Source: Chloroflexota bacterium (lineage in GTDB: Bacteria; Chloroflexota; UBA11872; VXOZ01). Taken from it: DNA of 64,000 nt. The notes beneath the pieces are model-generated. The model was not told the origin of the DNA. It worked only from the letters and a program-made list of their open reading frames with translations, and made no database searches. Positions 1,093 through 17,148 of this stretch are shown one piece after another (within the stretch, counting starts at the first letter, position 1; the number at the start of each line of letters is the position of its first letter). The position numbers were made by a program, and so were the translations under genes. The stretch lies in contig OZ244775.1 in the NCBI GenBank assembly GCA_965219505.1, forward strand, positions 2,558,815 through 2,622,814. Direction: 5' to 3'.

Positions 1093-4000
1093 ATGCGTGT
1101 CTCGTTAACGGCATGTGTTTGGTTGCCTAAGCTGATTTGGCGAGAGCTAAGGAGACCCACCGTGACCCGTTTTCTCACGTTGCTCCATACGATTACGCAA
1201 CGAAGCTCAAGGCAGTCAGTCTTGCCGGGTGTGGGGCAGCCTGGTATTGGGTTCGTGCTCGTGGTGCTGTTCAGCATGGTCTTCGCCATGGCTGCGCACG
1301 CGCAAACAGACAATGGGGAGAGTAGTTCGAGTGAGGTGCCCACCCTGACGATCGCGTCGTCGCACACTATTGCAGTGAAGGGCGAGGAGGTCACGTTTAC
1401 GATAACGGCGGACAGTGCGCCGACGACGGACATTTTGGTATACGTGCAGGTACAGGTAACGGTGCGCGAGCAGTCGTTGTATCAAAGCAAGGTTATGACG
1501 GTGTCCTTGGGAGCGGGAGAGCGGACGCTTGAGTTGCTAGCGGATACGGGAAGTGGCGGGGTAGGTGCGGGGATTCTGACACTTGACGTGAGTATTCTGG
1601 GGGGCGCTGGGTATCGCTTGGGCGATTCCCCGGTCGTGGGCATACGGGTGACGGATCCGCCCGCGGAAGCGGCGACTGGTAGCGGTGGAGCCGGCCAGAC
1701 GCCGCCGCCTGCGCCTGTGGGGTTCACGGCGAGTGCGGCAGCTGAGGACAGCATCGCGGTGAGCTGGGACGAACTGGCAGGGGTGTCGCACTATCGGCTG
1801 GAGGAGCAACTTGGGTCATTTAGTGTGGTGATGTGGCGTGTGGTGGGAGGACAGGGCAGTATCGCGCAGTCGAGCGCCACGGTCGCGGGATTGGCCGCCG
1901 GCACGACGTATCGGTACCGGGTGCGGGCGTACGGCGATGGGGAGGGCAATGCGGCAGCGTGGGGCGCTGCATCGGTAAGCGCTAGCGCCACGACCCAGGG
2001 GACTCAAACGCGGGCGCAAACTGCCAGGTCGGCGGTAGTGCGAGACGCACTGCCAGCGCCCACTGGGTTCAGCGCCACTGCGCCGAATTACTACACCATC
2101 AACGCGAGTTGGAACACCGTGACTGGGGCCAACTGCTATCGGTTTGGCATCTGGCTGGGCAATCCTGGGGGCTGGATATTCGTCAACATGAAAGATACAA
2201 GCTATTCGCGGACTAACGGTATAGCACGGGGCACGACGTACCAAATCCGCGTAGCAGCGACCAGTGATGAATGCCCAAACAATTCCATGTCAACTGCGGA
2301 GTGGGGGCCAGACCGGTGGGGGCAAGTGACCACGCCCCGACCCGATCCGCCGGCGCCCTCTGGGTTCAGCGGCAGCGCCACCGGCACACGGAGTATCAGT
2401 GCAAGTTGGACCCATGTGGGTGATACCTCCAAGTATGAGTTTAGCATAGAAATTGACGATCTCGGTGGCTGGCAAACTAACGAGCTTGCACGCTCCACTA
2501 CGAGCACTACGTGGAGCAGGGGTCTTGCCCCAGACACAACGTACAAAATTAGAGTGAGGGCCTATGGTGACGGCGGTGTCTATGCTGCAGACTGGGGCGA
2601 CTATAGTGAGGGTACGGTAACGACCGATTCGACGGTATCGCCGACAGAGACCCCGACGCCCACGCCAACACCCACGCCCACGCCGACGCCCACGCCGACA
2701 CCTACACCGACACCTTCAGGAACACCAGCGCCAGCGCCGGCCAGCGTTACGGCGGTCTTAGGTCAGACAGGCATCACGGTGTCCTGGACGTGGGGCACAG
2801 GAGTTAGTGCAGATATCGTAGACCACAAGGTGGAGTGGGAGGATAGCGCTCAGACGCACTCTGGCAGCAAAGCAGGGATCTCGCGTAATCTTGGAACGTG
2901 GGTGGTGACAGGACTAAAGTGCAGCAGCACCTATACCTTCAAGGTCAGCGGCCGGGGCGATGGCGACCCCTATAGTACAACCTACGGCCATAAGAAAGCA
3001 GGCACCGCCAGCACCAAGCTCTGCGCGCCTGAGCTCGACGTCATTCCGCTGCCGCAAAATAGTTCGTTTCGCAAGGCGTTGTTGACCTGGGATCGTGACG
3101 ACCGCGCCACCGGTGGGTATATCGTGCAAGTTCGAATAAAGGATGCGTCCTCGTGGCAAGACCTAGACGTCGTTCACACCTGGAACTCATATCAAGATTC
3201 TCCAGATGAAGATCCGTCGGTTGAGATAGAATTGGACATCATCGTAGATCCAATCGCAGTGGGACGTAATGAAGGCTTAGCCTTTCACGAGGCCTTTGAA
3301 TTCCGAGTGCAAGCTAAGCACGCTGAAGACAGTGCATTGGATAGTGACTTCAGCCATGTGACGATTGTGGATAGTCCCATCACCTCGGTGGTCGGAGACA
3401 GCAGTATGCAATCCGATAACAGAGGCAAGATGGTAATCAAGTGGCCAATGGTTCACAGTGACGCTCGATACACGGTGAGTTGGTACAAACTCGCTGGCGA
3501 CCATTCGCAGCTTTCCTGGCGTCCTAGTTCTACTCCAGTACCAAGAGACGATTGGGAGAGCATTGCCACATCCACCACACGTCTAGATCATACAGTCTAC
3601 ACTTCCACTCCAGGTCCTGGGGGTGACGTCTACGCAGTGCAACTCAACTACACAATCGCTGGTGAGAAATACTTCTCCGCGCGTGCGGCCTACGGTTGGG
3701 TATCGGACAGTTCACCCGACGGCAGCGGCAGGCGCGTTGCTACCTTTCCTCTGAACGACCCATTGCCTAACGGCACCTATGCATACCGCATCTGCTTAGA
3801 CACGTTTCCCCCTGACATGAATGATCAGGCAGACTGGCAAGAAATGATAGTAGAAGCTCTTGACCAATGGGAATCGGCCGTGCCCGATTATGTCACCATG
3901 AGTTTGGTAACCCATGAAGCAGGCACCCCTGATGCGGGAAAGAGCAAACCGTGCGCCAACAATGAGCCGGTTGTCAGGGCGATAAAGGACAGAATCGACG

Positions 4001-4554
4001 CGGAATACGCCGCATCACTTGCCAACCAGATAGATACGGGCACGATCCGGAAGTACGTGGAAGGCCTCAGCATTCATACGCGCTTTGTTGATGCCGACAA
4101 TGAACTGAACGAAATTCTGTTGGTTGAGCTTGACGAAGCAAGTAGTGATGTACGAGTCTTAGCCTTTAACGAACTCAGCGACCTCGCCGGTCTTGATTGC
4201 TTCACTGGTGAAGATGATCCGGTAGCCTGCGCACACCAGCCGGACGGCGTGCCAACCATTGACATCCTTATTAACAGTTCTAGGGCAGTAGACGGCCCCT
4301 TCACGCAATCTGTAGTAATGTTCAATACTTGCATTGAAGGCACCGGTACTCAGCCACTTCTGTGGTCAACGCTAGTACACGAAGCCGGTCACGCGCTGGG
4401 AGTTGACGGTGGCACTGATGGTAAAGGCCAGGAACGCTATCACTCGAACCTCCAGATGTCTACAATGCGAGAAGGGGGTGCGGGGAGCAAGGGATGTTCT
4501 CCTCATCCGTTCGACATCATGGCGATCACCGCGCTCTATCAGTACATACCTTGA
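1093..4554 (+). CDS. Secreted multidomain protein with fibronectin-III repeats, a TPTPTP... linker and a C-terminal matrixin-like zinc metalloprotease domain (HEAGHALG; Met-turn 'STMRE'; C-terminal helix 'CSPHPFDIMAITALYQ')
   Basis: There is a hydrophobic signal-like segment 'VLVVLFSMVFAMAAHA', so the true start is probably an internal GTG/TTG near 1255. At least five fn3-like units follow the pattern 'PxGFxAxAxxxxSIxxSW...GTTYxYRVRAYGDG'. A (TP)n linker spans 2650-2710. The HExxH motif plus the 'xDIxxIxxLYQ' tail resembles the matrixin 'DDIxGIQxLYG' terminal helix. Confidence 0.75.
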   Translation: MRVSLTACVWLPKLIWRELRRPTVTRFLTLLHTITQRSSRQSVLPGVGQPGIGFVLVVLFSMVFAMAAHAQTDNGESSSSEVPTLTIASSHTIAVKGEEVTFTITADSAPTTDILVYVQVQVTVREQSLYQSKVMTVSLGAGERTLELLADTGSGGVGAGILTLDVSILGGAGYRLGDSPVVGIRVTDPPAEAATGSGGAGQTPPPAPVGFTASAAAEDSIAVSWDELAGVSHYRLEEQLGSFSVVMWRVVGGQGSIAQSSATVAGLAAGTTYRYRVRAYGDGEGNAAAWGAASVSASATTQGTQTRAQTARSAVVRDALPAPTGFSATAPNYYTINASWNTVTGANCYRFGIWLGNPGGWIFVNMKDTSYSRTNGIARGTTYQIRVAATSDECPNNSMSTAEWGPDRWGQVTTPRPDPPAPSGFSGSATGTRSISASWTHVGDTSKYEFSIEIDDLGGWQTNELARSTTSTTWSRGLAPDTTYKIRVRAYGDGGVYAADWGDYSEGTVTTDSTVSPTETPTPTPTPTPTPTPTPTPTPTPSGTPAPAPASVTAVLGQTGITVSWTWGTGVSADIVDHKVEWEDSAQTHSGSKAGISRNLGTWVVTGLKCSSTYTFKVSGRGDGDPYSTTYGHKKAGTASTKLCAPELDVIPLPQNSSFRKALLTWDRDDRATGGYIVQVRIKDASSWQDLDVVHTWNSYQDSPDEDPSVEIELDIIVDPIAVGRNEGLAFHEAFEFRVQAKHAEDSALDSDFSHVTIVDSPITSVVGDSSMQSDNRGKMVIKWPMVHSDARYTVSWYKLAGDHSQLSWRPSSTPVPRDDWESIATSTTRLDHTVYTSTPGPGGDVYAVQLNYTIAGEKYFSARAAYGWVSDSSPDGSGRRVATFPLNDPLPNGTYAYRICLDTFPPDMNDQADWQEMIVEALDQWESAVPDYVTMSLVTHEAGTPDAGKSKPCANNEPVVRAIKDRIDAEYAASLANQIDTGTIRKYVEGLSIHTRFVDADNELNEILLVELDEASSDVRVLAFNELSDLAGLDCFTGEDDPVACAHQPDGVPTIDILINSSRAVDGPFTQSVVMFNTCIEGTGTQPLLWSTLVHEAGHALGVDGGTDGKGQERYHSNLQMSTMREGGAGSKGCSPHPFDIMAITALYQYIP

Positions 4555-4567
4555 AGGAAACTCATTG

Positions 4568-5878
4568 ATGATGGCACGAACGTGGTTGGCGCAATTTGGC
4601 CTATTGGTGGTGCTGGCATTTTCACTGGTTGGCTGCCAACAGCAGGCTGGAGTGGGGTCAGCGACGCCGGTGGTAGTGATCAGTACGCCAACGGTCGCAC
4701 CCTCGCCGACACCTGAAGACGTTACACACGACGTTGGCAGCCGTCCCTGTGGTCCGTTGGGGTATTCGATCAACCTTGGTGAGGGTAAGATCTTTCTCGC
4801 CTGGACGCCGGATGGCGCGCACCTGGTATTCAACTACTTTGCAGGAAAAGATGAGAGAGACTGGAACATCCTCACCGGTATCTGGCTGGTGGACGCAGCA
4901 GGCAGCCGCTTGGAGATGCTGGTCGACGCTAATCCCAGTCGCGAGTCCCAGTACGGTCACTATGCCGACGTATCGCCGGACGGCACGCAGCTTGTCTATG
5001 CAAGCTGTGAGTATCCCTATCCAGGGCGGGTAGATTTCAACTTCGAGGTGGCCATCATCGGTATAGACGGCACAGGGCAGCAGCGGCTGACGAAGAATCT
5101 GTATTTGGACCTATATCCCGTCTGGTCGCCGGATGGCAGCCGTGTCGCCTTCCTCTCCACGCGGCAGTACTTCACACCAAAGAGAGTGGCGCTCTACACC
5201 ATGGCGGCAGACGGCTCGGACGTGCAGCGTGTGGCTCCGCCCGGCAAGCATGGGCTGACCCTGGCGCCGCCGGTCTGGTCGCCAGATGGGGAGCGCTTAG
5301 CCTTCCAAGTTAACACCGGCTTCTTCGAAAACTTCGTAAGGGACTTGCACTTGGTAAGAGCCGACGGCTCGGAGATGACCTTGCTTGCGGAGGAAGTGGC
5401 TAGTGTGCCCGCCTGGTCGCCGGACGGGCAACGGCTGGCGGTGGCGAAGATTGCCGGCGATGACGTAGGGCTTTACACCCTGGCGGCGGACGGTTCTGAC
5501 CTACAGCTCATCACTACCATATTCAAGTTGGAAGTGATTCAATGGTATTCGACCTACAATGATTCGTTACCTATCGTTTCGTGGTCACCGGAGGGGTCAC
5601 AGATACTCTACTCCTGCAAAAAAAATGGTGCATGTATCATCGACTTGGAGAGCGGAAAGGTAAGGTTGGTCGAATATGAAATCTCAGCTTTGCTCGCACC
5701 CCACGCTGCGGCGTGGTCCCCCGATGGTACCCGCATCGCCATCTATACTCCAGGTGGTGATAGGCGACCGCAACTCTACACCGTGGCCCCCGACGGCACC
5801 GACCGCCGCCATCTGATACGCGTGGACGACGACGGCAACCTGGCGCCTGCCAATCCGCCGGAGGATGGATCGCAATGA
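4568..5878 (+). CDS. PD40/TolB-like beta-propeller lipoprotein (cassette 1 partner)
   Basis: RBS 'aaggaaa' lies before ATG 4568. A lipoprotein signal ends in 'LVGC'. It contains multiple 'YPVWSPDGSRVAF'-type PD40 repeats. The conserved C-terminus is 'DDDGNLAPANPPEDG'. The stop overlaps the next ATG in an ATGA arrangement. Confidence 0.75.
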   Translation: MMARTWLAQFGLLVVLAFSLVGCQQQAGVGSATPVVVISTPTVAPSPTPEDVTHDVGSRPCGPLGYSINLGEGKIFLAWTPDGAHLVFNYFAGKDERDWNILTGIWLVDAAGSRLEMLVDANPSRESQYGHYADVSPDGTQLVYASCEYPYPGRVDFNFEVAIIGIDGTGQQRLTKNLYLDLYPVWSPDGSRVAFLSTRQYFTPKRVALYTMAADGSDVQRVAPPGKHGLTLAPPVWSPDGERLAFQVNTGFFENFVRDLHLVRADGSEMTLLAEEVASVPAWSPDGQRLAVAKIAGDDVGLYTLAADGSDLQLITTIFKLEVIQWYSTYNDSLPIVSWSPEGSQILYSCKKNGACIIDLESGKVRLVEYEISALLAPHAAAWSPDGTRIAIYTPGGDRRPQLYTVAPDGTDRRHLIRVDDDGNLAPANPPEDGSQ

Positions 5879-8479
5879 ATTACGTTGCAACTACATATGG
5901 CAGTGAGACGGAGGTAGCGGTGAGCACGCACGCTTGTCCCACACCTACACAGGTACCGACAGTGGCGCCTACACTAACAGTCAGAGCCGCCGTCAGCGCC
6001 AAGTGGGTTTAGCGCCAGCGCGCCCAATCACTTCACAATCAACGCGAGTTGGAACAGGGTGAGTGGGGCCATCTGCTATCGGTTCGGCATCTGGATTGGC
6101 AATCCTGGGGGGTGGAAGTACCAATTTACGCGGAATACAAGCGACACGCGGACTGCGGGTATAGCCCGGGGCACGACGTACCAAATCCGCGTAGCTGCGA
6201 CCTCCGATGAATGCCCCAAGTCGACCATGATGACTGCGGAGTGGGGGCCAGACCGGTGGGGGCAAGTGACCACGCCCCGACCCGATCCGCCAGCGCCCTC
6301 TGGGTTCAGCGGCAGCGCCACCGGCACACGGAGTATCAGCGCGAGTTGGACCCATGTGGGTGATACCACCAAGTATGAGTTTAGCATTGAAGTTGCCAGT
6401 CTCGGTGGCTGGCAAACTCAGGAAGTTGCGCGCTCCACGACGAGCACTACGTGGAGCAGGGGTCTTGCCCCAGGCACAACGTACAACATTAGAGTGAGGG
6501 CCTATGGTGACGGGGGTGTTTATGCTGCAGAGTGGGGGCCCTATAGCACGGAGACGGTAACGACCGAAATACCGACCGCGACTGCGACACCCACGCCCAC
6601 GCCGACACCTACACCGACACCTTCAGGAACACCAGCGCCAGCGCCGGCCAGCGTTTCGGCGGTGCTTGAAGGAGACACCAGTGTCCGCGTCTCCTGGACG
6701 TGGGGCACAGGGGTTAGTGCAAATATCGTAGCCCACAAGGTGGCGTGGGAAGATAGCGCTCAGACTCACTCTGGCAGCAAAGCAGGGATCTCGCGTAATC
6801 TTGGAACGTGGGTGGTGACAGGACTAAAGTGCAGCAGCACCTATACCTTCAAGGTTAGCGGACGGGGCGACGGCGACCCCTATAGCACAACCTACGGCGA
6901 TAATAAAGCAGCATCCGCCAGCACCAAGCTCTGCGCGCCTGAAGTTGACGTCATCCCGCTGCCGCACCGTCAGGCGTTATTGAAATGGGACGAAATACGC
7001 CTTGCAGATGAATACACCGTTGAAGCGCGAATGCTTCAAACAGGGAATCGTGGCTGGGCGACACCACATGCTTGGAACGTCGCCGACCCTGACAGGACTT
7101 CTCTTACAGTAAATTTGAAGACTATTGTCAATTACAGAGGGTTACAACACTCACCATACGCATACGAATTCCGTGTAAAGGCAGTGGATACCGGCACAGA
7201 TCCAATTCCTAGCAGTGAGTACAGCAACAGAGTCATACTCATAGATACACCCATCCTGTCAGTAAATGGCCATAGCCCCGGCTCAGGAAATAACGATGCC
7301 CAAGCGTTGCTCACGTGGAAGGAGATAGTTCAAGAGGACGTCTTGGGTAGTGAATGGAGAGACTTTGCAGGTGGAGCTTATTCTTTCCGCTATCGCAGGC
7401 TTAGCGACGCAAGCAATCCGCACACAGACCTAAACTGGAAACCGGACAAGCCTTCGGAACCCATTACAACCGTCAGCAACCCGATCACAGAATTGAGGCG
7501 TGAGGAAATCTACGCCATACAGCTGATCTATACCGTGACGAAGCCGGGGGAGACAACCCCAACAACCTTCTATTCTGCCCGAGATGCCTTCGTTTGGCCG
7601 TCAGCTGAAGGCGCAGACGGAGGGGAGAGAGTCGCAACTTTTCCGCTTAAGAACGGCGGCAGCGTTTATATGTACCGCATTTGTGAAGACGGATTCCCTG
7701 CTGCAGACATTGGTGACTGGAAAGCTACCATTCAGCATGCCTTTGGATTGTGGAAAGCCTTCACAGATCTTGTAACCATGACGTACTTAGGGTCTACTTG
7801 TGCGGACTACTCTGACGCTATCCAAGACATAGATAGCAATTATAACGACAAGACAGGGGTACCCTTGACCCCAAGTCAGCTTGGGATGTTGGGGCAGTAT
7901 TTGAAACAGCTTGATGTCCTTACCAACGCTCAAACCGACGATAAAGAGTACAACGAAGTAATCATGGTTGATGACACTACAGGTGTCTACGCAGAGTTCA
8001 AAGACATAGGAATCTTCCCGGAGTTTGCATCGGAATTGGGGTTTGCTGGGTGTGTTTTTGACGTCGATACTACGGCTTGCGCCATTTCCCGTCATGTGGA
8101 CGCGCAAACAGGTTACATTACGGACATTCTGTTGCGTAGGAGCAGAAACAAATTCGCTCCATCGGTTATGCCGGGCGGTGATATTACAGTGGAGAGAAGT
8201 GACGTGCAATTCAACATTTGCCCTACGGGCCCAGGCTTCAACACCTATGCGACCCTGATTCATAAATCCGGCCATGCCTTGGGAATTAGAGGTGGAGCCG
8301 AGGATCCTGATTGGATCCCTCAAATGAAAGGACATCCTACGATTTCGAATACTGTTATGAACTATGAAAACACAAACTTGAAGGCGCGAGGACCAATACA
8401 TATGTTGCCAACCGAACCGGATTGTTCCCCACATCCGTTGGACATTCTGGCAATCTACGCCATCTATCAGACTGATTGA
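5875..8479 (+). pseudogene. 5'-truncated, frameshifted paralog of the 1093..4554 metalloprotease, with HKSGH replacing HExxH
   Basis: An ATG at 5875 overlaps the TolB-like stop and opens a 45-codon frame (5875..6012) that terminates at TAG. Homology to 2040-4554 continues in another frame, open from 5978 with a GTG at 6059. This implies a 1-nt indel between about 5980 and 6010. The matching residues are PSGFSASAPNHFTINASW versus PTGFSATAPNYYTINASW. The catalytic motif reads 'IHKSGHALG' (Glu->Lys). The C-terminus is 'PDCSPHPLDILAIYAIYQTD'. Confidence 0.55.
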
Positions 8480-9852: not shown

Positions 9853-9854
9853 TG

Positions 9855-9986
9855 ATGAACAATGCCAAAGCGTCTCCCGTCCAAATGACGAGTGAAGGCA
9901 GTTCCCGAAAGGTCAGCGAGCCGGACTGTTCGCCGCATCCGATGGACATCATGGCGATATACGCACTGTATCAGACAGTCGACTGA
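9855..9986 (+). CDS. Mini-ORF (43 aa), a metalloprotease C-terminal stub: MNNAKASPVQMTSEGSSRKVSEPDCSPHPMDIMAIYALYQTVD
   Basis: The start overlaps the upstream stop (TAGTGATG). It retains the Met-turn-like 'VQMTSEG' and the terminal-helix motif shared with the big protease (LQMSTMREGGAGSKGCSPHPFDIM...). Confidence 0.4.
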   Translation: MNNAKASPVQMTSEGSSRKVSEPDCSPHPMDIMAIYALYQTVD

Positions 9987-10001: not shown

Positions 10002-11330
10002 GTGCGCCGAATGTGGTTAGTGTTTCTAGCGTTCGCTTTGTGCACTGTCGCTTGCGCGGAGGAGCATGTGGAATATGTCGCGACTATAGAGTTCAACTAT
10101 CCGTGCGGTGTACACATGCATGTCGCCACCCCTGGCTCATATCACGATCACTTCCTGGCATGGACGCCGGACGGCGTTCATCTTATATTCGATGCAACAA
10201 CGCCAAGCGGCGCTTCTCGCGCATATTATCGCTGGCGCAGCGCTATGTGGAAGGTAAATGCTGAGGGACGCGCGGTGCGCATGCTCGTTGACGTGAATCC
10301 CGGGCATCCTGTCAAGTACGGTCTGTACGGAGACGTGTCCCCGGACGGTACCCGGATCGTCTATGCCACCTGCGAGTTTCCGACCGAAGGCAAAGTGACC
10401 CACTCTGAGCGAGAGAACTACCACTACGAGATCGCCGTATTGGACTTGGACAGCGGCAAGCGGCAGCGTCTCACGCACAACAAATACCTCGACCATTACC
10501 CAGTGTGGTCGCCGAACGGCAGCCGCATTGCCTTCGTCGCGAATCCTCCCAGAGAGGGTCACATCAATGAGGGTGGTCACGACGCGCGACTCTATTCGAT
10601 GTCGCCGGATGGAACGGACGTTCAGAACATGGTATCCATGCTGCCCATTCTTAGCTATTCGCAGGTAGAGGCTAGCCGGGATGATGCGGCAGTACCCAAG
10701 CTCAGAGGAGTTGCACTGTTTCCGCCAGCGTGGTCACCGGACAGTAAGAAGCTGGCGTTTTTGGTATATGAAGGGGAGTACGCTCCGCTTCGGAAGATAC
10801 TCTACACCGTGCGGGTAGATGGTTCGGAGTTGACGCGGATAGCGGAGAACGTAGTGAGCGTGGCGTCGTGGTCGCCGGACGGTCAACGGCTCGCGGTGGC
10901 CAAGTTTGCCGGCGATAACGTCGGGCTCTTCACTCTGGCAGCGGACGGTTCTGACGAAAAACTGATTACTACCATCACTGACAAAGCAAAGTTATTCCAA
11001 GATAGTCCGAAAAGCCGGCATCAGTTCAAAGTACGTACGTTGTCGTGGTCGCCGGATGGGTCGGCGTTTCTCGTTATCTCAGATGAGTTTGAGTTATTCG
11101 TCATTCAACCGGACGGCAAGGGCGTGCACAAAATGAGCCTGGGCTTTGAGCCTGAACACACCGGCCGAACCATCGCTGCCTGGTCGCCGGATGGCACGCG
11201 CGTCGCCCTCTACGATGGAAACAGTCGGCTCGTGACCATAAGTCGTGACGGCACAGACCGCCGCAACTTGATACACGTGGACGACGCCGGCAACCTCGTG
11301 CCAGCGATCCCGCGAGAGTTGGCACTATGA
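10002..11330 (+). CDS. PD40/TolB-like beta-propeller lipoprotein
   Basis: Signal 'LAFALCTVAC', the 'YPCG' N-terminal motif, PD40 repeats 'DHYPVWSPNGSRIAF', and the conserved C-terminus 'DDAGNLVPAIPRE'. Confidence 0.75.
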   Translation: MRRMWLVFLAFALCTVACAEEHVEYVATIEFNYPCGVHMHVATPGSYHDHFLAWTPDGVHLIFDATTPSGASRAYYRWRSAMWKVNAEGRAVRMLVDVNPGHPVKYGLYGDVSPDGTRIVYATCEFPTEGKVTHSERENYHYEIAVLDLDSGKRQRLTHNKYLDHYPVWSPNGSRIAFVANPPREGHINEGGHDARLYSMSPDGTDVQNMVSMLPILSYSQVEASRDDAAVPKLRGVALFPPAWSPDSKKLAFLVYEGEYAPLRKILYTVRVDGSELTRIAENVVSVASWSPDGQRLAVAKFAGDNVGLFTLAADGSDEKLITTITDKAKLFQDSPKSRHQFKVRTLSWSPDGSAFLVISDEFELFVIQPDGKGVHKMSLGFEPEHTGRTIAAWSPDGTRVALYDGNSRLVTISRDGTDRRNLIHVDDAGNLVPAIPRELAL

Positions 11331-11458
11331 TAAACCAAAGCGCATCATCTCCTGTTCACCTGGTCGTTGATGGCCGCCGTGACAGGTTCAGCAATCCGGA
11401 CTGTTCGCCGCACCCTCTTGACATCATGGTGATATTTGCAATTTATCAGACGTATTGA
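11327..11458 (+). CDS. Mini-ORF (43 aa): MINQSASSPVHLVVDGRRDRFSNPDCSPHPLDIMVIFAIYQTY
   Basis: ATGA overlap with the upstream propeller stop. Carries the same C-terminal motif as the other stubs. Confidence 0.4.
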   Translation: MINQSASSPVHLVVDGRRDRFSNPDCSPHPLDIMVIFAIYQTY

Positions 11459-11470: not shown

Positions 11471-12745
11471 ATGATTCCTTTGACACGACCTTGGTTGAGA
11501 TATTTGGCGCTATTGCTGGCCTTGGGCTTTGTCGGCTGCTCAAGTGTGGATCCACAACATAATGTCGTAGTCGATGCAGACTATCCGTGTGGGCCGTTTA
11601 TGTATAGAGACGGTCTATTCCTCAATGATCACGTTATTGCATGGACTCCTGACGGCTCTCAGCTCTTGTTCAACTATGGCACGTTGATTTGGGTCGTTGA
11701 TGCCCAAGGCACCCAGCTGCGCCCACTTGTTGACGTAAACCCAGCAGTGGCGTATTCGGGACATCTACTTCGGTTTGGTATTCATCTCGACATCTCTCCA
11801 GACGGTACACGCGTCGTCTTTACTACCTGCGAGTACGAAATTGAGCCCAAACCGGCACGACCACTTTTCAGTGAACGAGAAGCGTATCACTACGAAATCG
11901 CCGTTATCCATCTGGATGGCACCGGACAGCAGCGACTCACAGTAAACCCAGATCTCGATCACTATCCGGTATGGTCGCCGGATGGTAGCCGTATAGCCTA
12001 CATTGGGGAGAGGCCTGATGAAGACTCTCGTCGCCGGAAGAAAGGCCTCTACACGATGGCGGCGGATGGGTCGGACGTGCGGCAACCAGCGGTCCCATCC
12101 TCGATTGTGTTTGCTCTCAATTCGCCAGTGTGGTCACCAGACGGTGAGAGCTTAATGTTGGAGGGATACGAGGGTGGGACTAGTCCAGCGACTCATATTT
12201 ATTTGGTATCTACCGAGGGTTCGCAGTTGTCGCGGATACCGGTTCAGTCTCCGGACTATCGCAGTTTCATGGTGTGGTCGCCAACATTTGACCGGCTTGC
12301 CGCAGCAAAGCTTGAAGGCGAGGAGCTAACCCTCGTAATCCTGGCGGCGGACCCTTCAAACCCGATGTTGCTCACCAAGATTACTCATCGAAGTACGTTT
12401 GAGAGAAGAGATCACCCCTTTAGATATGGGATACGCACGATTTTATGGGCACCTGAAGGGACCCACATACTTTTCACTTGCGAGCCAATAATATGCGTGG
12501 TCAACGTAGAGGATGGACAGGTAATTGGGGTGGTAGAGGAAGCAAATGCTCGGGTTCGCGATTTCTACTATGCGGCCTGGGTGCCCGACGGCTCGCGGAT
12601 CACGATATATACGCCTGGAGATCCGCTTGAAGAGGTTCCCCCAGAACTCTACACGATCGCCCGAGATGGCACTGATCGCCGTGACCTGATCCGTCTGGAT
12701 GACGACGGCAACTTGGTGCCAGCCAATCCGCCAAAGGATGAATAG
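11471..12745 (+). CDS. PD40/TolB-like beta-propeller lipoprotein
   Basis: Signal 'LALGFVGC', the 'YPCGPFMY' N-terminal motif, PD40 repeats, and C-terminus 'DDDGNLVPANPPKDE'. Confidence 0.75.
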   Translation: MIPLTRPWLRYLALLLALGFVGCSSVDPQHNVVVDADYPCGPFMYRDGLFLNDHVIAWTPDGSQLLFNYGTLIWVVDAQGTQLRPLVDVNPAVAYSGHLLRFGIHLDISPDGTRVVFTTCEYEIEPKPARPLFSEREAYHYEIAVIHLDGTGQQRLTVNPDLDHYPVWSPDGSRIAYIGERPDEDSRRRKKGLYTMAADGSDVRQPAVPSSIVFALNSPVWSPDGESLMLEGYEGGTSPATHIYLVSTEGSQLSRIPVQSPDYRSFMVWSPTFDRLAAAKLEGEELTLVILAADPSNPMLLTKITHRSTFERRDHPFRYGIRTILWAPEGTHILFTCEPIICVVNVEDGQVIGVVEEANARVRDFYYAAWVPDGSRITIYTPGDPLEEVPPELYTIARDGTDRRDLIRLDDDGNLVPANPPKDE

Positions 12746-12747: not shown

Positions 12748-12846
12748 ATGAACTTTGACCGGAAACTGTAAGTCCCTGGCGATGCCCCCGACTGTTCGCC
12801 GCATCCGTTTGACATCTTGGCAATTTACGCACTCTATCAGACTTGA
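12748..12846 (+). pseudogene. Disrupted mini-ORF: MNFDRKL* followed in-frame by ..GDAPDCSPHPFDILAIYALYQT*
   Basis: It is homologous to the 14310..14411 copy, but TAT has become TAA at codon 8 ('ctgtaagtc' versus 'ctgtatgtc'). The conserved tail is still intact downstream. Confidence 0.35.
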
Positions 12847-12879: not shown

Positions 12880-14310
12880 ATGCAACGGTTTTGGTCAGCA
12901 GCGCGATGGGTACTGCCGCTCGTCCTACTACTAGGAATTGCCAACTGCAACTCGCTGGACACTAAAGTTGACCAAAGCACGACCATAGCCGAGCTCCAAT
13001 ACCAGTGTGGGCCATTCTTCTCTGAATTTGGTCTCGGATACCAGGACCTCTTCCTTGAATGGACGCCGGACAGCACCCAGATCATATTCAATTATACGGT
13101 GGAAGGCCGACCGGACATCAATCGTCACTTCAGGGCAGCGGCTTGGGCTGTTGATAGTCAGGGTACTTGGGTGCGCATGCTTATTGACGCTAGTCATGGG
13201 AACGCTCCATTGTATGGTCTCCACGCTGACGTGTCGCCGGACGGCGCCCGTATCGTCTATGGCAGTTGCGAATTCCCAACGGAAAGTATATCCGTGAAAC
13301 CCTATGATTCGGAACGCAAAAGAATCCGCTACGAAATTGCCGTAATCAACTTGGACGGCACGGGGCAGCAGCGTCTCACGGAGAATGAGCATATTGACCA
13401 CTACCCGGTGTGGTCGCCTGACGGCAGCAGAATCGTCTTCATCGCGAATCCCCGCACCCCAGGCAATGAAGGCGGTATGGAACTCTTCATTATGGCGGCG
13501 GATGGCTCAGACGTACGTCGGGTTGCTTCCACGTTGATTAGGGAAAGCACAGATACAGAGGGATTTTACTACTGGCGCACAAACTGGTTCTACACGAACC
13601 GTGGAATAGAGGTCGGCGACTCTGAAGAGCCGTGGCTGGCAGCAGTGGCTATGGCGCCGCCGGTGTGGTCTCCGGACGGAGAGCGCTTGGCGTTTCTGGT
13701 GTACGCGGGGTCGTCGTCTCGGCGAATTCGCCACTTGCTATATACGGTGCGTGCTGACGGATCGGAAATGACGAAGATTGCAGAGACGGCGTATATGGCA
13801 GAGCTTAATGAAAACCCTGTATTGGTTTATATCGCGATGGGTGTGCCCTCGTGGTCGCCGGACGGCGAGTACCTCGCCTTTGTAGGGGTTGACGAGGCAG
13901 GCGAGGCGAGTGGTGTCTACACCGTTCGTCCTGACGGCACAGATCTAAAACAGGTGCTACAACCGCAGGGGCCAGATTGGAACGTGTTCCACGTGTCGTG
14001 GTCGCCGGATGGAACAGAGATACTGGTCGCCTCCCAGCAAGGGCTTCACTTCATCCAACCGGATGGCAGTGGTCTGCGAATGGTGGACGAGAAGGCTGCC
14101 TTCGATGCTTACGACATGACCTTAGGGATTGCTGTAGCGTGGTCGCCTGACGGTGGACGCATCGCCCTTTACATGCCGGGAAGCGCCTACCAAAACGTAT
14201 CGCCTCAGCTCTACACAATTGCCCGAGACGGCACCGATCGCCGCGACTTGATTCGACTGGATGACGGCGGCAACATCTCGCCAGCCAATCCGCCACAGGA
14301 TGAATCGTGA
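12880..14310 (+). CDS. PD40/TolB-like beta-propeller lipoprotein
   Basis: Signal 'LLLGIANC', the 'YQCGPFF' N-terminal motif, PD40 repeats, and C-terminus 'DDGGNISPANPPQDES'. Confidence 0.75.
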   Translation: MQRFWSAARWVLPLVLLLGIANCNSLDTKVDQSTTIAELQYQCGPFFSEFGLGYQDLFLEWTPDSTQIIFNYTVEGRPDINRHFRAAAWAVDSQGTWVRMLIDASHGNAPLYGLHADVSPDGARIVYGSCEFPTESISVKPYDSERKRIRYEIAVINLDGTGQQRLTENEHIDHYPVWSPDGSRIVFIANPRTPGNEGGMELFIMAADGSDVRRVASTLIRESTDTEGFYYWRTNWFYTNRGIEVGDSEEPWLAAVAMAPPVWSPDGERLAFLVYAGSSSRRIRHLLYTVRADGSEMTKIAETAYMAELNENPVLVYIAMGVPSWSPDGEYLAFVGVDEAGEASGVYTVRPDGTDLKQVLQPQGPDWNVFHVSWSPDGTEILVASQQGLHFIQPDGSGLRMVDEKAAFDAYDMTLGIAVAWSPDGGRIALYMPGSAYQNVSPQLYTIARDGTDRRDLIRLDDGGNISPANPPQDES

Positions 14311-14411
14311 TGAACCATAACCGGAAACTGTATGTCGCTGAAGGTGCTCCCGACCGTTCGCCGCACCCGTTCGACATCTTGGCGATATTTGCACTGTATC
14401 AGACGTACTAG
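14310..14411 (+). CDS. Mini-ORF (33 aa): MNHNRKLYVAEGAPDRSPHPFDILAIFALYQTY
   Basis: TGATG overlap with the upstream stop. The conserved tail carries a Cys->Arg substitution (cgt versus tgt). Confidence 0.4.
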   Translation: MNHNRKLYVAEGAPDRSPHPFDILAIFALYQTY

Positions 14412-14430
14412 ACACAAGGTGTGAGAGAAC

Positions 14431-17148
14431 GTGTTGATTGCTGGGTCGAAAGGTTTGACGAGAATAGCAGGGCTGCTGCTGCTTTTGTTGCTTCTTGGCG
14501 TGGTCGGTTGCGCCACCGCAGAAGAGGTTGACGACATCCGCACCGAAGAGGTCGACGACGCCCGCACTGAAGAGGTTGAGGATGACGGCCGTATCTACCC
14601 GTGTAGCCCGTATTTTCTCGGGGTCGACGAAGATGCAAAGCATTCTCCGGTCTTCAAACCTAGGTTTCAAGATTTCTTATTGGAGTGGACGCCCAATGGT
14701 GCTCAGATTCTATTTGGCGTCTTCGAATTCCGCAGGGCTCATGAGATCCGCGTGGTGAATGCGCAGGGCTCACGCTTGCGCACGCTCGTAGATCCTGCAA
14801 GGGGCAACCCCGCATATGGTTTTCATTTTGACGTATCGCCGGACAGTACCCAGGTTGTCTATTCCTCCTGCGAGTTCCAAATGGAAGGCTCCGCTGGTAT
14901 TGAATCACTTCCGGAACGGGGAAGGTATCACTATGAGATCGCCGTCATCAACCTCGACGGCACGGGACGGAAGCGGCTCACGGCGAACGCATACCTCGAC
15001 CACTACCCGGCTTGGTCGCCCGACGGCAGCCGCATCGCCTTCATCGCGGAACCAACTGGCGGGTTAGAAAAGCCTATTGAGCGCAACTTGGTGCTCTACA
15101 CGATGACGGCGGATGGATCGGACGTGCAACAGTTGGCGCCGCCGGCGGCGAGCAACTTGGCTTTCACGCCGCCGCTCTGGTCGCCGACTGGGGAGCACGT
15201 GGCATTCATCGTGAAGGAGAGAGGCGGACCGTTCTTTTACGCCCTTTACACTGTCCGGCTAGACGGATCGGAGTTGACGCGCATTGCGCGCATAGCGCAG
15301 GCGACCGTAGTCTTTCCGGTACCTCGTGATGCTCCTCCGTTGGTGGCCTTGCCGTCATGGTCGGCGGATGGAGCTTATCTCGCCTTCCTGGCGCAGGAGG
15401 ACGGAAGAAACTACAGCATCTCCACCGCCCGCGCCGACGGCACTGAACTGCGCCAGGCGCTGGTATTGCCGGAGCCGGAGTCGCTTCTGAAACCGCACCG
15501 CCTGCTGTGGTCGCCGGATGGCGAACATCTAGCTCTGGTCATGTTTGATGAACAGGTCGCAATCAGTAGCTTTTACCCAGACGTAAACGATCCGATCGCC
15601 TTAGATGAATCCGGCCGTATCTACATTGCACGGGTGGACGGCAAAGGCCAGACGCGGATACTGCCAGCGCATGGACCCTGGTGGAACCCTTCCCTGGTGT
15701 CTTGGTCGCCGGACGGCTCTGAGCTTCTTCTTGTCTCGCGGCGTCAAGTGTTTCTCATCCGGCCGGACGGCGGCGAGTTACGCCGCTTGGGCGTGGGGCC
15801 GCAACACTTATTTTCCGCTTTCGCAGGAAGTCAATGGCACAACGTTGCGTGGTCGCCGGACGGCGCGCGCATTGCGCTCTATGATGCCGGGCCGAGGAGC
15901 GTCGATTTCCTGGGCATTTTCACGGTCGTGCCGGATGGGTCCGATCCGCGCGGATTGATGTGGGCAGGTAGCGAAATCGGCGATTCACGGGACCTAGAGC
16001 CCTGGCATCTTCCCCAGCCGGTTACGCCTGTAGACCCGGCAGCGTGCACAACGGGGGTTGTCGTGCCACGGCCTGGGTCCAATCCCGGCTTGGTCGCGGA
16101 CTGCAAGACGTTGCTCGGTTTGCGAGATGCCCTGGCGGGGCGCGCGACGTTGAACTGGAGCGGCCAGACACCTATCGCCGAGTGGGAAGGCATTACTATC
16201 GACGACCGGCCCCGACGCGTGACCGCACTGTTGTTGAGAGATCGCGGCCTCACCGGCGTGCTCCCACCGGAACTCGGCCAGCTCACTGCATTACGGCGGT
16301 TAGAGCTGTCTTCAATGGTCGAACCATACCGCGGCGTGCCGAACAGGCTGCATGGCAGCATTCCGGCTGAACTGGGTAATCTCAGCAAACTTGAGTATCT
16401 GGCCCTCGGCGGGAACCACCTGAGCGGAGAGATTCCGCCGGAGTTGGGCAATCTGACGTACCTTCGGTACTTATTATTGGATAGGAACTATCTGCGCGGT
16501 GGCATTCCGCCTGAATTGGGCGGGCTCACCAATCTTAGTGGACTGCACCTCGACAACAATGCACTAAGTGGCTCGATTCCAACAGAGTTGGGCGGGCTCA
16601 CCTACCTTAGTGGACTGCACCTCGACAACAATGCGCTTAGTGGCTCGATTCCAACAGCGTTGAGCCGTCTCACAAAACTTGAGTATCTGCACCTCGACAA
16701 CAACGAACTGAGTGGCCCCATACCGATGGAGTTGGGCGGGAATACGGAGCTTTATTCGTTGAATCTTGCCTTCAATGATCTGAGTGGGACCATACCGCCG
16801 GAGTTGGGAAGACTTACGGAACTCGATTGGCTGGAACTTCGGAACAACAATTTGAGCGGGCCTATCCCGCCTGAGCTGGGAGGTCTTTCGAGCCTCCGTC
16901 TTCTAGATATTGGAAACAATAGTCTGAGCGGGCCTATTCCACCGGAGTTGGGCGGTCTTGGTTATCTCCTTTACCTAAATCTCTCCTTCACTGAGATAAC
17001 TGGAAGCCTGCCTCCCGAACTAGAGCAACTCCGAATTGGGAAGTATCTGCACTTGAGGCATACCAATCTCAGCGGCTGCGTGCCGAGAGAATTGCCGGAG
17101 ATTTGGGTAGAAGCAAGCGGTCTGGAACGGTGTAAAGCAAGTGAGTGA
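14431..17148 (+). CDS. PD40/TolB-like beta-propeller lipoprotein fused to a C-terminal plant-type leucine-rich-repeat domain
   Basis: Signal 'LLGVVGC' and an acidic 'EEVDDxRTEEV' repeat at the N-terminus. PD40 repeats occupy the N-terminal ~500 aa. About 13 tandem 24-residue LRRs of the form 'LxxLxLxxNxLSGxIPxELGxL' follow from aa ~600. Confidence 0.75.
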   Translation: MLIAGSKGLTRIAGLLLLLLLLGVVGCATAEEVDDIRTEEVDDARTEEVEDDGRIYPCSPYFLGVDEDAKHSPVFKPRFQDFLLEWTPNGAQILFGVFEFRRAHEIRVVNAQGSRLRTLVDPARGNPAYGFHFDVSPDSTQVVYSSCEFQMEGSAGIESLPERGRYHYEIAVINLDGTGRKRLTANAYLDHYPAWSPDGSRIAFIAEPTGGLEKPIERNLVLYTMTADGSDVQQLAPPAASNLAFTPPLWSPTGEHVAFIVKERGGPFFYALYTVRLDGSELTRIARIAQATVVFPVPRDAPPLVALPSWSADGAYLAFLAQEDGRNYSISTARADGTELRQALVLPEPESLLKPHRLLWSPDGEHLALVMFDEQVAISSFYPDVNDPIALDESGRIYIARVDGKGQTRILPAHGPWWNPSLVSWSPDGSELLLVSRRQVFLIRPDGGELRRLGVGPQHLFSAFAGSQWHNVAWSPDGARIALYDAGPRSVDFLGIFTVVPDGSDPRGLMWAGSEIGDSRDLEPWHLPQPVTPVDPAACTTGVVVPRPGSNPGLVADCKTLLGLRDALAGRATLNWSGQTPIAEWEGITIDDRPRRVTALLLRDRGLTGVLPPELGQLTALRRLELSSMVEPYRGVPNRLHGSIPAELGNLSKLEYLALGGNHLSGEIPPELGNLTYLRYLLLDRNYLRGGIPPELGGLTNLSGLHLDNNALSGSIPTELGGLTYLSGLHLDNNALSGSIPTALSRLTKLEYLHLDNNELSGPIPMELGGNTELYSLNLAFNDLSGTIPPELGRLTELDWLELRNNNLSGPIPPELGGLSSLRLLDIGNNSLSGPIPPELGGLGYLLYLNLSFTEITGSLPPELEQLRIGKYLHLRHTNLSGCVPRELPEIWVEASGLERCKASE

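What the first reader, a model, noticed from the sequence alone, without database searches (positions are those of the whole stretch)
1093..17148. A 16-kb tandem array of [matrixin-like metalloprotease -> PD40 beta-propeller lipoprotein] cassettes in progressive decay
Six consecutive cassettes lie on one strand, with start/stop overlaps (ATGA, TGATG) linking every gene. Cassette 1 has an intact 1153-aa fn3 / PT-linker / HExxH protease. Cassette 2 has a 5'-truncated, frameshifted protease with HKSGH. Cassettes 3-6 retain only a 33-43-codon protease stub. All six propellers share a lipoprotein signal, a conserved 'YPCGP' N-terminal motif, PD40 repeats and a conserved 'DDGNLxPANPPxDE' tail. One propeller is pseudogenised and one is LRR-fused. 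This looks like a paralog expansion of a secreted protease / surface-propeller pair in which the propellers are kept while the proteases are eroded. That pattern would suggest the propellers have protease-independent roles (adhesins or receptors), or that the single active protease serves several propellers. I do not know of this pairing being described as a system.
Basis: partly seen in the sequence, partly recalled or inferred. Interest (0 to 1): 0.85.

Follow-up and report, generated by a model that had tools for sequence, protein, structure and literature searches.

The report
Metalloprotease plus surface-propeller cassette array
This is a real array of six gene cassettes, each pairing a secreted zinc protease (or its leftover tail) with a membrane-anchored beta-propeller protein. 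The pairing is conserved and uncharacterised, was found only in Chloroflexota, and its arrays are reshaped by recombination inside a short conserved block at the protease gene's end.

Summary
Window 1093-17148 carries six same-strand cassettes. Cassette 1 has an intact fn3-rich HExxH protease. Cassette 2 is a dead pair: an N-truncated, frameshifted HKSGH protease and a propeller with two frameshifts. Cassettes 3-6 each have a 24-44-codon protease tail followed by an intact lipoprotein PD40 propeller; the last is LRR-fused.

The pairing is not a local accident. In 75 loci from Chloroflexota/Dehalococcoidia MAGs, 74 of 87 full proteases are followed directly by such a propeller. Others are followed by RCC1-propeller or DUF6174 lipoproteins. 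Most arrays end with a third conserved, unnamed lipoprotein domain that this window lacks.

"Progressive decay" is only partly right. Orthologous cassettes elsewhere keep full proteases, so proteases were lost. But the tails share discrete boundaries and are nucleotide mosaics, which points to recombination within the conserved 57-nt protease 3' block rather than gradual erosion.

Function is inferred. The propellers are most likely surface ligand-binding partners of the protease. Inhibitor/immunity and shed-substrate roles remain open.

No description of this pairing was found. I rate it a new variant of a known kind, of moderate-to-high interest.

The parts
1093..4554 (+). prot1: an intact secreted multi-fn3 metalloprotease. 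It has a signal peptide ending AHA/Q, a PT linker, a C-terminal metzincin-fold catalytic domain with HEAGH, and the conserved C-terminal helix CSPHPFDIMAITALYQ.
4568..5878 (+). prop1: a lipoprotein PD40 beta-propeller with lipobox LVGC, a PT-rich stalk, RPCGP and a DDDGNLAPANPP ending. Its start lies 13 nt after the prot1 stop, preceded by AGGAAA.
   Evidence: It is 72% identical to the L002 propeller that follows the prot1 orthologue.
5875..8479 (+). prot2: a degenerate protease. A 45-aa ORF overlaps the prop1 stop (ATGA), followed by a frameshift and an 806-aa ORF. It has no signal peptide, and the catalytic Glu is replaced (HKSGH). Its fn3 part is 85-87% nt identical to that of prot1.
   Evidence: It is the only non-Glu motif among 114 homologues, and the L003 orthologue is intact.
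8500..9852 (+). prop2: a pseudogenised propeller in three reading-frame pieces (two frameshifts). The same frameshifts are present in the independent contig L001.
   Evidence: Its L003 orthologue is 75% identical and intact.
9852..9986 (+). Protease 3' tail 3 (44 codons). It starts at the Met-turn position (V)MN and ends EPDCSPHPMDIMAIYALYQTVD. It overlaps the prop2 stop by 1 nt. Public annotation calls it as a 43-aa gene.
10002..11330 (+). prop3: an intact lipoprotein PD40 propeller.
   Evidence: Its closest relative, in L018, follows a full protease.
11327..11458 (+). Protease 3' tail 4 (43 codons), with an ATGA overlap on the prop3 stop.
11471..12745 (+). prop4: an intact lipoprotein PD40 propeller, modelled as roughly seven blades. 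The conserved C-terminal 'tail' forms strands of the last blade.
   Evidence: AF2 pLDDT 84. Foldseek to TolB at 3e-13.
12748..12846 (+). Protease 3' tail 5. It is interrupted by an in-frame TAA at 12769-12771 in this strain, but the motif itself is intact.
   Evidence: It is 80-88% nt identical to tail 6 across the upstream propeller's 3' end plus the tail itself, then 33-50% downstream.
12880..14310 (+). prop5: an intact lipoprotein PD40 propeller.
   Evidence: Its relatives follow a 104-aa zinc-motif fragment in L072 and a full 1665-aa protease ORF in L008.
14307..14411 (+). Protease 3' tail 6 (34 codons), with a GTGA overlap on the prop5 stop. The conserved Cys is replaced by Arg.
14431..17148 (+). 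prop6: a lipoprotein PD40 propeller fused to a plant-type LRR domain. The LRR part resembles the LRR part of the family's third-gene proteins.
   Evidence: It is 45-49% identical to the L008 and L063 C3-LRR proteins.
4496..4542 (+). Copy 1 of the conserved protease 3' block. The other copies are at 8424-8470, 9928-9974, 11403-11449, 12794-12840 and 14356-14402. It is the inferred recombination substrate.
   Evidence: Mosaic breakpoints lie inside it.

Best explanation
What is shown.
- The region is a birth-and-death array of a gene module found here only in Chloroflexota. The module has a Sec-secreted, multi-fn3 zinc protease with a metzincin-fold catalytic domain at its C-terminus. A lipoprotein follows it 12-33 nt downstream, usually a roughly seven-bladed PD40 beta-propeller.
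- In relatives, the array usually ends with a third lipoprotein. It carries a conserved, unnamed domain of about 140 aa and often LRR, fn3 or cadherin repeats. This window lacks that gene.
- In the window only cassette 1 has a working protease. Cassette 2 is a dead pair. Cassettes 3-6 keep the last 24-44 codons of a protease gene.

What is inferred about evolution.
- The tails are by-products of homologous recombination within the conserved 57-nt block that encodes the protease's C-terminal helix. Recombination between copies of the block removes or replaces the protease body in one step and places an existing tail in front of another propeller.
- This explains the shared 5' boundary, the mosaic sequences and the well-kept motif.

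What is inferred about function.
- The propellers are cell-surface, lipid-anchored ligand-binding partners of the secreted protease. They would hold it at the cell surface and/or select targets such as host matrix.
- Multiplying and diversifying propellers would widen binding specificity while one protease suffices.
For: Anatomy and domains.

Propeller. pLDDT is 84 and the fold is TolB/DPP4-like. A Cys after the hydrophobic segment is conserved in at least 90% of 45 homologues.

Conserved adjacency. 74 of 87 full proteases are followed by this propeller, and 4 more by protease-protease-propeller.

Partner slot. It is also filled by RCC1 propellers or DUF6174 proteins, and all of these carry lipoboxes.

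Third gene. It follows 61 of 74 array ends and often carries LRR, fn3 or cadherin. Propeller-C3 and propeller-LRR fusions also exist.

Negative control. There were 0 protease hits in 378 kb around 80 generic PD40 genes.

Protease loss. Orthologous cassettes elsewhere have full or longer proteases, and HKSGH is unique to this lineage.

Recombination.
- The L076 tail is about 100% nt identical to the L004 tail class for about 120 nt. It then switches, inside the motif, to the L034 full-protease tail and propeller.
- Window tails 5 and 6 are 80-88% identical up to the motif end and 33-50% after it.
- Tails have lost invariant C, P or D residues at 6 of 87 positions, against 0 of 222 in full genes (p = 4e-4). 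This fits non-functional remnants.
Against: No direct evidence shows that protease and propeller interact, or says what the propeller binds. No multimer model, expression data or proteomics were available.

The protease model has modest confidence (mean pLDDT 55; core 70-90).

The tail motif shows strong codon-position periodicity and pN/pS of about 0.25. Its amino-acid divergence (pN 0.13) is also lower than in any propeller segment (0.21-0.54). Selection on a translated micro-ORF could explain this as well as repeated renewal from functional genes could.

The recombination evidence rests on a few clear mosaics, not on a formal breakpoint test across all loci.

Sponge or coral association of the relatives is inferred from MAG names, and is not known for the window's own genome.
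Confidence: 0.45

Rival explanations
1. Protease plus cognate inhibitor or immunity lipoprotein. The propeller neutralises the protease at the producer's surface. Propeller-only cassettes would be orphan immunity genes kept to resist related proteases from neighbouring Chloroflexota, as in the orphan arrays of polymorphic toxin systems.
For: - The gene order and tight linkage fit protease followed by a downstream partner.
- Both partners are strongly diverged between paralogues (proteases 25-35% identical; propellers 36-48%).
- Arrays consist of intact partners behind 5'-truncated protease fragments.
- The partner's fold is replaceable.
- Literature search returned two pairs. One is the Listeria Mtz/TIM-like lipoprotein (PMC8235301, abstract read). 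The other is Mep72 (PMC4334185, title and abstract start only); that it is co-transcribed with an inhibitor, BamI, is from my memory.
- The serralysin AprA/AprI pair is from my own knowledge.
- Weak sub-threshold Pfam Inh hits occur in two propellers.
Against: - The partners are large (420 to over 2000 aa) and often fused to LRR or C3-LRR-cadherin modules. This is unusual for inhibitors or immunity proteins.
- The Inh hits fall below the Pfam cutoff (18.7-20.6 bits against 25).
- There is no delivery system or toxin-type context in the window.
- The proteases carry many fn3 domains, which suits matrix or surface binding.
Confidence: 0.22
2. Protease plus substrate. The propeller is a surface adhesin or effector that the adjacent protease cleaves from its lipid anchor to release it. 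One protease could then serve many propellers through a shared N-terminal site near xPCGP.
For: - There is an experimental precedent. In the Listeria pair the secreted metzincin cleaves the adjacent lipoprotein and releases it (PMC8235301 abstract).
- All window propellers have a variable, sometimes PT-rich stalk followed by a conserved (Y/R)PCGP-like motif.
- One intact protease sits beside five intact propellers.
Against: - The xPCGP motif occurs in only 28 of 64 near-full propellers in relatives and is absent from the RCC1 and DUF6174 partners.
- The motif's Cys is more simply read as a disulfide partner of the invariant Cys120.
- No cleavage data exist.
Confidence: 0.18
3. The 34-44-codon tails are maintained, translated micro-ORFs. 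They could be translational-coupling relays that pass ribosomes from one propeller gene to the next, or small peptides with their own role.
For: - Three of the four window tails are open, and the fourth is open in strain L001.
- Their starts overlap or lie within 3 nt of the upstream propeller stop.
- The same ORF class, starting at the Met-turn Met, recurs in other genomes.
- The motif has pN/pS of 0.25 and codon-position differences of 0.225 / 0.093 / 0.451.
- The motif's amino-acid divergence (pN 0.13) is lower than in any propeller segment.
Against: - About a third of tails in relatives lack a start, or are cut to 19-32 codons with no overlap.
- Some propeller-propeller junctions have no tail at all (L057, L046, L009).
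- Invariant residues are lost significantly more often than in full genes.
- The propellers have their own Shine-Dalgarno-like sequences in the spacer.
- The tails lack signal peptides, so they could not meet the exported propeller.
- The selection-like signature is also expected if the motif is repeatedly re-derived from functional proteases by recombination.
Confidence: 0.12
4. The array is an assembly artefact or a chance arrangement of unrelated ORFs.
For: The region is repetitive and comes from a metagenome-derived genome.
Against: - An independent contig from another sample gives the same order at 99.3-99.6% identity.
- The cassettes are too divergent to collapse.
- The same architecture is found in dozens of other genomes.
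Confidence: 0.01

Closest known systems
Matrixins and serralysins (MEROPS M10; metzincin clan)
   Same: - The HExxHxxG zinc motif, and a Met-turn in the serralysin/astacin-like context S-V-M-N-Y.
- A C-terminal helix, (P)xDIxAIxALYQ, that parallels the matrixin DDxxGIQxLYG.
- The best predicted-fold matches are MMP-9, -2, -12 and -20 and Pseudomonas alkaline protease.
   Different: - It fails the Pfam M10 gathering score (13 bits against 24).
- The canonical third His at +6 from the second His is absent. An invariant His lies 12-20 residues further on.
- There is no cysteine-switch propeptide (0 of 89).
- The catalytic domain sits at the C-terminus of a very long fn3-rich protein.
- There is no RTX or hemopexin domain.
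Metzincin plus adjacent partner operons: Listeria Mtz/TIM-like lipoprotein, P. aeruginosa Mep72/BamI, AprA/AprI, Acinetobacter CpaA/CpaB
   Same: A secreted metzincin is encoded immediately upstream of a dedicated exported or membrane-anchored partner. In Listeria the partner is a lipoprotein that the protease cleaves (PMC8235301). CpaA also appears among the fold hits (6o38).
   Different: - Here the partner is a 420-900 aa beta-propeller (PD40, sometimes RCC1), not a small inhibitor or chaperone fold.
- It is multiplied into arrays with protease remnants.
- A third conserved lipoprotein usually completes the module.
- The inhibitor and chaperone roles of BamI, AprI and CpaB are quoted from my memory, apart from what the abstracts show.
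TolB and the propeller domains of DPP-IV / S9 peptidases / tricorn
   Same: The PD40 repeat propeller fold (Pfam PF07676; Foldseek 3e-13 to TolB; precomputed Tricorn_N hits). In those proteins the propellers bind peptides (the TolB box) or gate substrates for a protease.
   Different: - It is not a TolB orthologue (54-76 bits against the 343-bit TIGR02800 cutoff).
- It is lipid-anchored, has no Tol-Pal context and has no fused peptidase domain.
- It works, if at all, in trans with a metzincin.
Orphan modules of CDI/Rhs polymorphic toxin loci (from my own knowledge)
   Same: A full-length gene with its downstream partner is followed by 5'-truncated fragments, each with its own intact partner. 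A short conserved block is shared between the full gene and the fragments and can mediate recombination.
   Different: - Here the retained fragment is the conserved end of the enzyme, not a variable toxin tip.
- The variable element is the downstream gene.
- No toxin/immunity activity or delivery machinery is evident.
Eukaryote-like repeat and adhesion proteins of sponge symbionts (LRR, fn3, cadherin, WD40)
   Same: fn3, LRR and cadherin domains occur in the module's proteins. fn3 genes are reported as enriched in sponge MAGs and especially abundant in Chloroflexota (PMC8163846). Several related MAG names suggest sponge or coral sources.
   Different: That literature counts domains. It does not describe this gene module, its protease or the arrays. 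The same paper found WD40 repeats not to be enriched.

Membership tests
Metzincin clan | Zinc-binding HExxHxxGxxH/D with the third ligand 6 residues after the second His | tested here: not met
   HExxHxxG is present in 112 of 114 homologues. Position +6 is Gly or variable, and an invariant His lies 12-20 residues downstream (HP.I). The spacing is therefore non-canonical.
Metzincin clan | Conserved Met-turn below the zinc site | tested here: met
   Met is at least 90% conserved in the S-V-M-N-Y context. prot1 has STM.
Metzincin clan | Metzincin catalytic fold | tested here: met
Peptidase M10 (matrixin, Pfam PF00413) | Score at or above the Pfam gathering threshold | tested here: not met
   13.6 and 13.0 bits against a cutoff of 24. 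There is no PDB sequence hit and no NCBIfam hit.
Peptidase M10 (matrixin) | Cysteine-switch propeptide PRCGxPD | tested here: not met
   The pattern P.CG.P occurs in 0 of 89 full-length protease ORFs. A PCGP-like motif occurs on the propellers instead.
PD40 / TolB-like beta-propeller | PD40 repeats and propeller fold | tested here: met
   PF07676 E 6e-11 to 2e-26 in all six. AF2 pLDDT 84 with roughly seven four-stranded blades. Foldseek gives TolB and DPP-IV propellers.
TolB (Tol-Pal system) | Equivalog-level similarity (TIGR02800) | tested here: not met
   54-76 bits against a cutoff of 343. There are no tol-pal genes nearby.
Bacterial lipoprotein | Signal peptide ending in a lipobox Cys | tested here: met
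   LVGC, MTAC, TVAC, FVGC, IANC and VVGC follow a hydrophobic segment. The Cys is at least 90% conserved in 45 homologues, and the RCC1, DUF6174 and C3 partners have one too. Lipidation itself cannot be tested here.
Serralysin inhibitor (Inh/AprI, PF02974) | Pfam Inh domain at threshold | tested here: not met
   18.7 and 20.6 bits against a cutoff of 25, and short partial matches only.
Orphan-module arrays (CDI/Rhs-like architecture) | A full gene plus partner, followed by 5'-truncated fragments each with an intact partner, sharing a conserved recombinogenic block | tested here: met
   The architecture is seen, and mosaic breakpoints lie in the shared block.
Orphan-module arrays (CDI/Rhs-like architecture) | Toxin activity of the enzyme and specific protection by the partner | not testable with these tools
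   This needs competition or inhibition assays.
Canonical three-gene module of this Chloroflexota family (protease, propeller lipoprotein, C3-domain lipoprotein) | A C3-domain gene after the last propeller | tested here: not met
   It is present at 61 of 74 array ends in relatives. There is no C3 hit anywhere in the window or in L001.

The most novel reading that the evidence does not exclude
The arrays are a cassette-exchange system. The conserved 57-nt end of the protease gene would be a recombination handle that lets a cell change which surface propeller is coupled to the one active protease. Alternatively, it would let cells hoard orphan partners against neighbours' proteases. Either way this would be a polymorphic, recombining protease/partner system analogous to CDI/Rhs orphan arrays. 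It would be built from a metzincin and beta-propeller lipoproteins and would operate in the dense communities where many of the related Chloroflexota MAGs appear to come from.
Probability: 0.15. Interest if true: 0.8.

Novelty: new variant of a known kind. Interest (0 to 1): 0.6.

Why it matters
The work defines an uncharacterised surface module that is multi-copy in at least some genomes. Its parts are a new metzincin subfamily with no Pfam or NCBIfam model, a large family of lipoprotein propellers (over 2800 database relatives at E below 1e-10), and a conserved unnamed third domain (396 relatives). Every locus found lies in Chloroflexota, and several MAG names suggest sponge or coral sources.

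How such symbionts attach to, feed on or remodel host matrix is an open question. Work so far has mostly counted "eukaryote-like" domains. A concrete, testable protease/partner module gives that question an experimental handle.

The recombination-shaped arrays are also a clean natural example of how enzyme/partner families undergo birth and death, and of how pseudogene-like remnants can look selected.

Tried and rejected
- Promoter and terminator scan of 700-17600. Counts were at chance level, with no site recurring in the tails. The conserved block is therefore not explained as a promoter or terminator.
- Rfam on 1-18000: no hits.
- NCBIfam: nothing at cutoff.
- PDB sequence search with the catalytic domain and with the third-gene protein: nothing.
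- Pfam on the third-gene domain: nothing at E up to 1.
- Tails made by one ancestral duplication junction. I rejected this as the sole explanation, because orthologous propellers elsewhere follow full or longer proteases and the tail endings track the downstream propeller's orthogroup.
- Read-through or frameshift fusion of a propeller to the following tail. I rejected this because the tail frame has a stop 2-3 codons before its Met.
- Apparent similarity between tail N-terminal halves (ASPVH...) and the third-gene domain. A profile search did not support it, even at E up to 10 with filters off.
- A JGI metagenome scan with the propeller profile returned only generic PD40 proteins (22-36% identity) with no protease nearby. 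It was useful only as a negative control.
- The first word-indexed protein search found only 23 protease homologues. The genome scan showed the family is much larger.
- The weak Pfam Inh hits are below threshold and were not used as evidence.
Full report

Yes. ORF listing and translation give, all on the + strand:
- prot1, 1093-4554: 1153 aa, with a signal peptide, several fn3 domains, a PT linker and HEAGH near the C-terminus.
- prop1, 4568-5878.
- A degenerate prot2, 5875-8479: a 45-aa ORF overlapping the prop1 stop, then a frameshift, then an 806-aa ORF with HKSGH.
- prop2, 8500-9852, split over three frames.
- Four units of [short ORF + propeller]: 9852-9986 / 10002-11330; 11327-11458 / 11471-12745; 12748-12846 / 12880-14310; 14307-14411 / 14431-17148.

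Pfam confirms PD40 in every propeller (E 6e-11 to 2e-26), fn3 in both proteases and LRR in the last propeller.

The conserved peptide CSPHPxDIxAIxAxYQ occurs exactly six times in the 64-kb window. Two copies are the ends of the two protease ORFs and four are the ends of the short ORFs. Each lies just upstream of a propeller.

An independent contig from another sample (L001) reproduces 11.9 kb of the array at 99.3-99.6% identity, including the two prop2 frameshifts. The propellers are only 36-48% identical to one another. A collapsed-repeat misassembly is therefore excluded.

- Overlapping stops and starts occur only at propeller-to-next-ORF junctions. Protease- or tail-to-propeller junctions have 12-33 nt spacers with purine-rich Shine-Dalgarno-like sequences.
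- Tail 5 carries an in-frame TAA in this strain, which reads TAT in L001.
- prop6 has no DDGNLxPANPP ending.

**2. What the proteins are**

*Protease.* The catalytic region gives only sub-threshold Pfam M10 matches (13 bits against a cutoff of 24). It gives no PDB sequence hit and no NCBIfam hit.

An alignment of 17 homologues shows the family signature LVHEAGHALGI - 12-20 residues - HPxIxxSVMNY - 10-25 residues - EPDCSPHPFDIMAIYALYQ. It has invariant H, G, H and H and a near-invariant Met.

So it is a metzincin-fold protease, closest to M10. The third His is displaced, and there is no cysteine-switch propeptide (0 of 89). The conserved C-terminal peptide corresponds to the metzincin C-terminal helix.

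*Propeller.* The model is confident (pLDDT 84). It has about seven blades and is TolB/DPP-IV-like, but it is not a TolB orthologue.

A Cys at the end of the N-terminal hydrophobic segment is conserved in at least 90% of 45 homologues, which marks it as a lipoprotein. Cys40 (the xPCGP motif) and Cys120 are also conserved.

The "conserved tail" forms high-confidence strands of the last blade. It is structural rather than a free peptide.

**3. Relatives**

A scan of one genome per species (GTDB) with the protease profile gave 126 confirmed matches. The 75 loci kept are all from Chloroflexota, Dehalococcoidia or Tepidiformaceae MAGs, and several have names suggesting sponge or coral sources.

I ran profile searches over all six-frame ORFs of these loci:
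- 74 of 87 full-length catalytic domains are followed directly by a propeller of this family.
- Four more have a protease-protease-propeller arrangement.
- In most of the rest, the downstream gene is a different lipoprotein: RCC1-repeat propellers in L024 and L039, and DUF6174 proteins in L011 and L050. All of these have lipoboxes.

As a negative control, 80 loci (378 kb) around generic PD40 genes from JGI metagenomes contain no protease of this family.

The pairing "secreted fn3-metzincin followed by a lipoprotein" is thus a conserved, lineage-specific module.

While checking neighbours I found a third member. It is a conserved domain of about 140 aa with no Pfam or PDB match. It follows the last propeller at 61 of 74 array ends. 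It is itself lipoprotein-borne and is often the N-terminus of 700-1800-aa proteins with LRR, fn3 and cadherin-like repeats. It has 396 unnamed homologues.

The window and L001 lack this domain entirely. The LRR part of prop6 is 45-49% identical to the LRR part of such proteins. That suggests a fusion with loss of the third domain.

**4. Decay or recombination?**

Proteases have indeed been lost.
- The closest relatives of window propellers 1, 2, 3 and 5 in other genomes are preceded by full-length proteases or longer zinc-motif fragments.
- HKSGH is the only non-Glu zinc motif among 114 homologues, and its L003 orthologue has HESGH and a signal peptide.

The remnants, however, are not a graded erosion series.
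- In the window all four start at the Met-turn codon. The protease Met-turn reads VMNY, and the tails start (V)MNN, MIN, MNF and (V)MNH.
- Across relatives, 66 truncated pieces fall into a few boundary classes that neighbouring cassettes share.

Within the 19-codon motif:
- The four window tails differ at pN 0.13 and pS 0.41. The flanking propellers show pN 0.21-0.54 and pS about 0.55-0.87.
- Over 29 unique tails from relatives, pN/pS is 0.25, with codon-position differences of 0.225 / 0.093 / 0.451. This resembles the 74 unique full-length gene sequences.

That rules out long neutral decay. It does not prove selection on the tails, for two reasons.
- First, the tail endings track the orthogroup of the downstream propeller while the tail beginnings track a "tail class". 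The L076 tail is about 100% nt identical to the L004 class for about 120 nt. It then switches, inside the motif, to the sequence of the L034 full protease and its propeller. Window tails 5 and 6 are 80-88% identical through the upstream propeller end plus the tail, and 33-50% identical beyond it.
- Second, tails have lost otherwise invariant Cys, Pro or Asp residues at 6 of 87 positions, against 0 of 222 in full genes (Fisher p = 4e-4). About a third lack a usable start. Some propeller-propeller junctions have no tail at all.

The simplest account is homologous recombination between copies of the conserved 3' block. This deletes or replaces a protease body in one step and leaves a tail whose 3' part is freshly derived from a functional gene. 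Chimeras between the third gene's 5' end and truncated proteases (L010 9236-10993; L002 13974-14504) show that other deletions also occur.

**5. How it most likely works**

Shown:
- A secreted metzincin, a downstream lipoprotein partner and (elsewhere) a third lipoprotein are co-conserved and tightly spaced.
- No internal terminators are predicted above chance.

Inferred, at about 0.45 confidence: the propellers are surface-displayed ligand-binding partners that retain the protease at the cell surface and/or select its targets. Arrays would diversify binding while one protease suffices. The arguments are:
- The partner slot accepts different propeller families.
- Propellers are fused to LRR or to C3-LRR-cadherin proteins.
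- PD40 propellers elsewhere bind peptides or gate protease substrates.
- fn3, LRR and cadherin proteins are the classic candidates for adhesion and host interaction in sponge symbionts (PMC8163846).

Rivals:
- Cognate inhibitor or immunity protein with orphan arrays (0.22). It is supported by the architecture and by metzincin-partner operon precedents. The size and fusions of the partners weaken it.
- Substrate shed by the protease (0.18). The Listeria Mtz/Tim pair is a direct precedent (PMC8235301).
- Functional micro-ORFs (0.12).

**6. Comparison, novelty and verdict**

The closest known kinds are M10 metzincins (same fold, but membership tests failed), metzincin-partner operons, TolB/DPP-IV propellers, and, architecturally, CDI/Rhs orphan arrays.

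No paper describing this module was found in four full-text searches. Public records give the proteins no names.

I rate it a new variant of a known kind, with interest 0.6. It is a well-defined, testable, lineage-specific surface module with unusual array dynamics, but its function is still inferred.

Noticed in passing
L003 1026-1739 and 6194-6907; L004 14007-14720; L008 12387-14624; L014 13039-16974; absent from the window: A third conserved component of the module. It is a domain of about 140 aa (VEEVLEKGLRLAEASPVHLAxRG...CDWRGIART...FLTCYADF) with no Pfam or PDB match. It sits on lipoproteins that often continue into LRR, fn3 and cadherin repeats, and it follows 61 of 74 array ends. It is 50-70% identical across loci whose proteases are only 25-35% identical.
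   Followed up: partly
L024 10744-12117, L039 10852-11949, L011 10949-12661, L050 6192-7097: In some relatives the gene after the protease is not a PD40 propeller. It is an RCC1-repeat propeller or a DUF6174 protein, in each case with a lipobox.
   Followed up: partly
L010 9236-10993; L002 13974-14504: Chimeric ORFs in which the N-terminus of the third-gene protein, including its signal peptide, is fused to a 5'-truncated protease. This shows deletions that span gene boundaries.
   Followed up: partly
L036 10893-17375; L027 10886-17032; L055 9806-12055: Single stop-to-stop ORFs that contain both a propeller and the third-gene domain (L036, L027), or both a protease part and a propeller (L055). 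They may be natural fusions that support a functional link.
   Followed up: no
window 5994-6966 versus 2054-3056: The fn3 region of the dead prot2 is 85-87% nt identical to that of prot1, whereas the L003 orthologue of prot2 has a different N-terminal region. This suggests a recent internal duplication or conversion between the two protease genes.
   Followed up: partly
L001 about 6092-6263, versus window 7647-7732: The near-identical strain contig appears to carry an 86-nt tandem duplication inside prot2, plus extra frameshifts. The contig has only 5x coverage, so these may be errors.
   Followed up: no
window 9855-9986: The 43-aa protease tail 3 is already called as a protein-coding gene in public annotation (P0144, NCBI and ENA), without a name.
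   Followed up: yes
window 4403-5878 (aa 333-364) and 9022-9852 (aa 213-233): Sub-threshold Pfam matches to the serralysin inhibitor family Inh (18.7 and 20.6 bits; cutoff 25) in two propellers. They are probably repeat-driven noise, but curious given the inhibitor hypothesis.
   Followed up: no
window 77-709, 17352-17930 (-), 19596-22185, 25246-28928: The flanking genes are ordinary chromosomal ones: a PduO-type cobalamin adenosyltransferase, DUF192, two adjacent MR/MLE enolase-superfamily genes and two ABC-transporter ATPase fusion genes. There are no mobile-element genes next to the array.
   Followed up: partly
L002 7402-11125; L003 and L004 7108-11221: Tandem protease-protease-propeller arrangement. 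A ~950-aa fn3 protease is followed by a 374-406-aa protease with its own signal peptide. The window's prot1 combines an fn3 body with a catalytic domain 72% identical to the short one.
   Followed up: no
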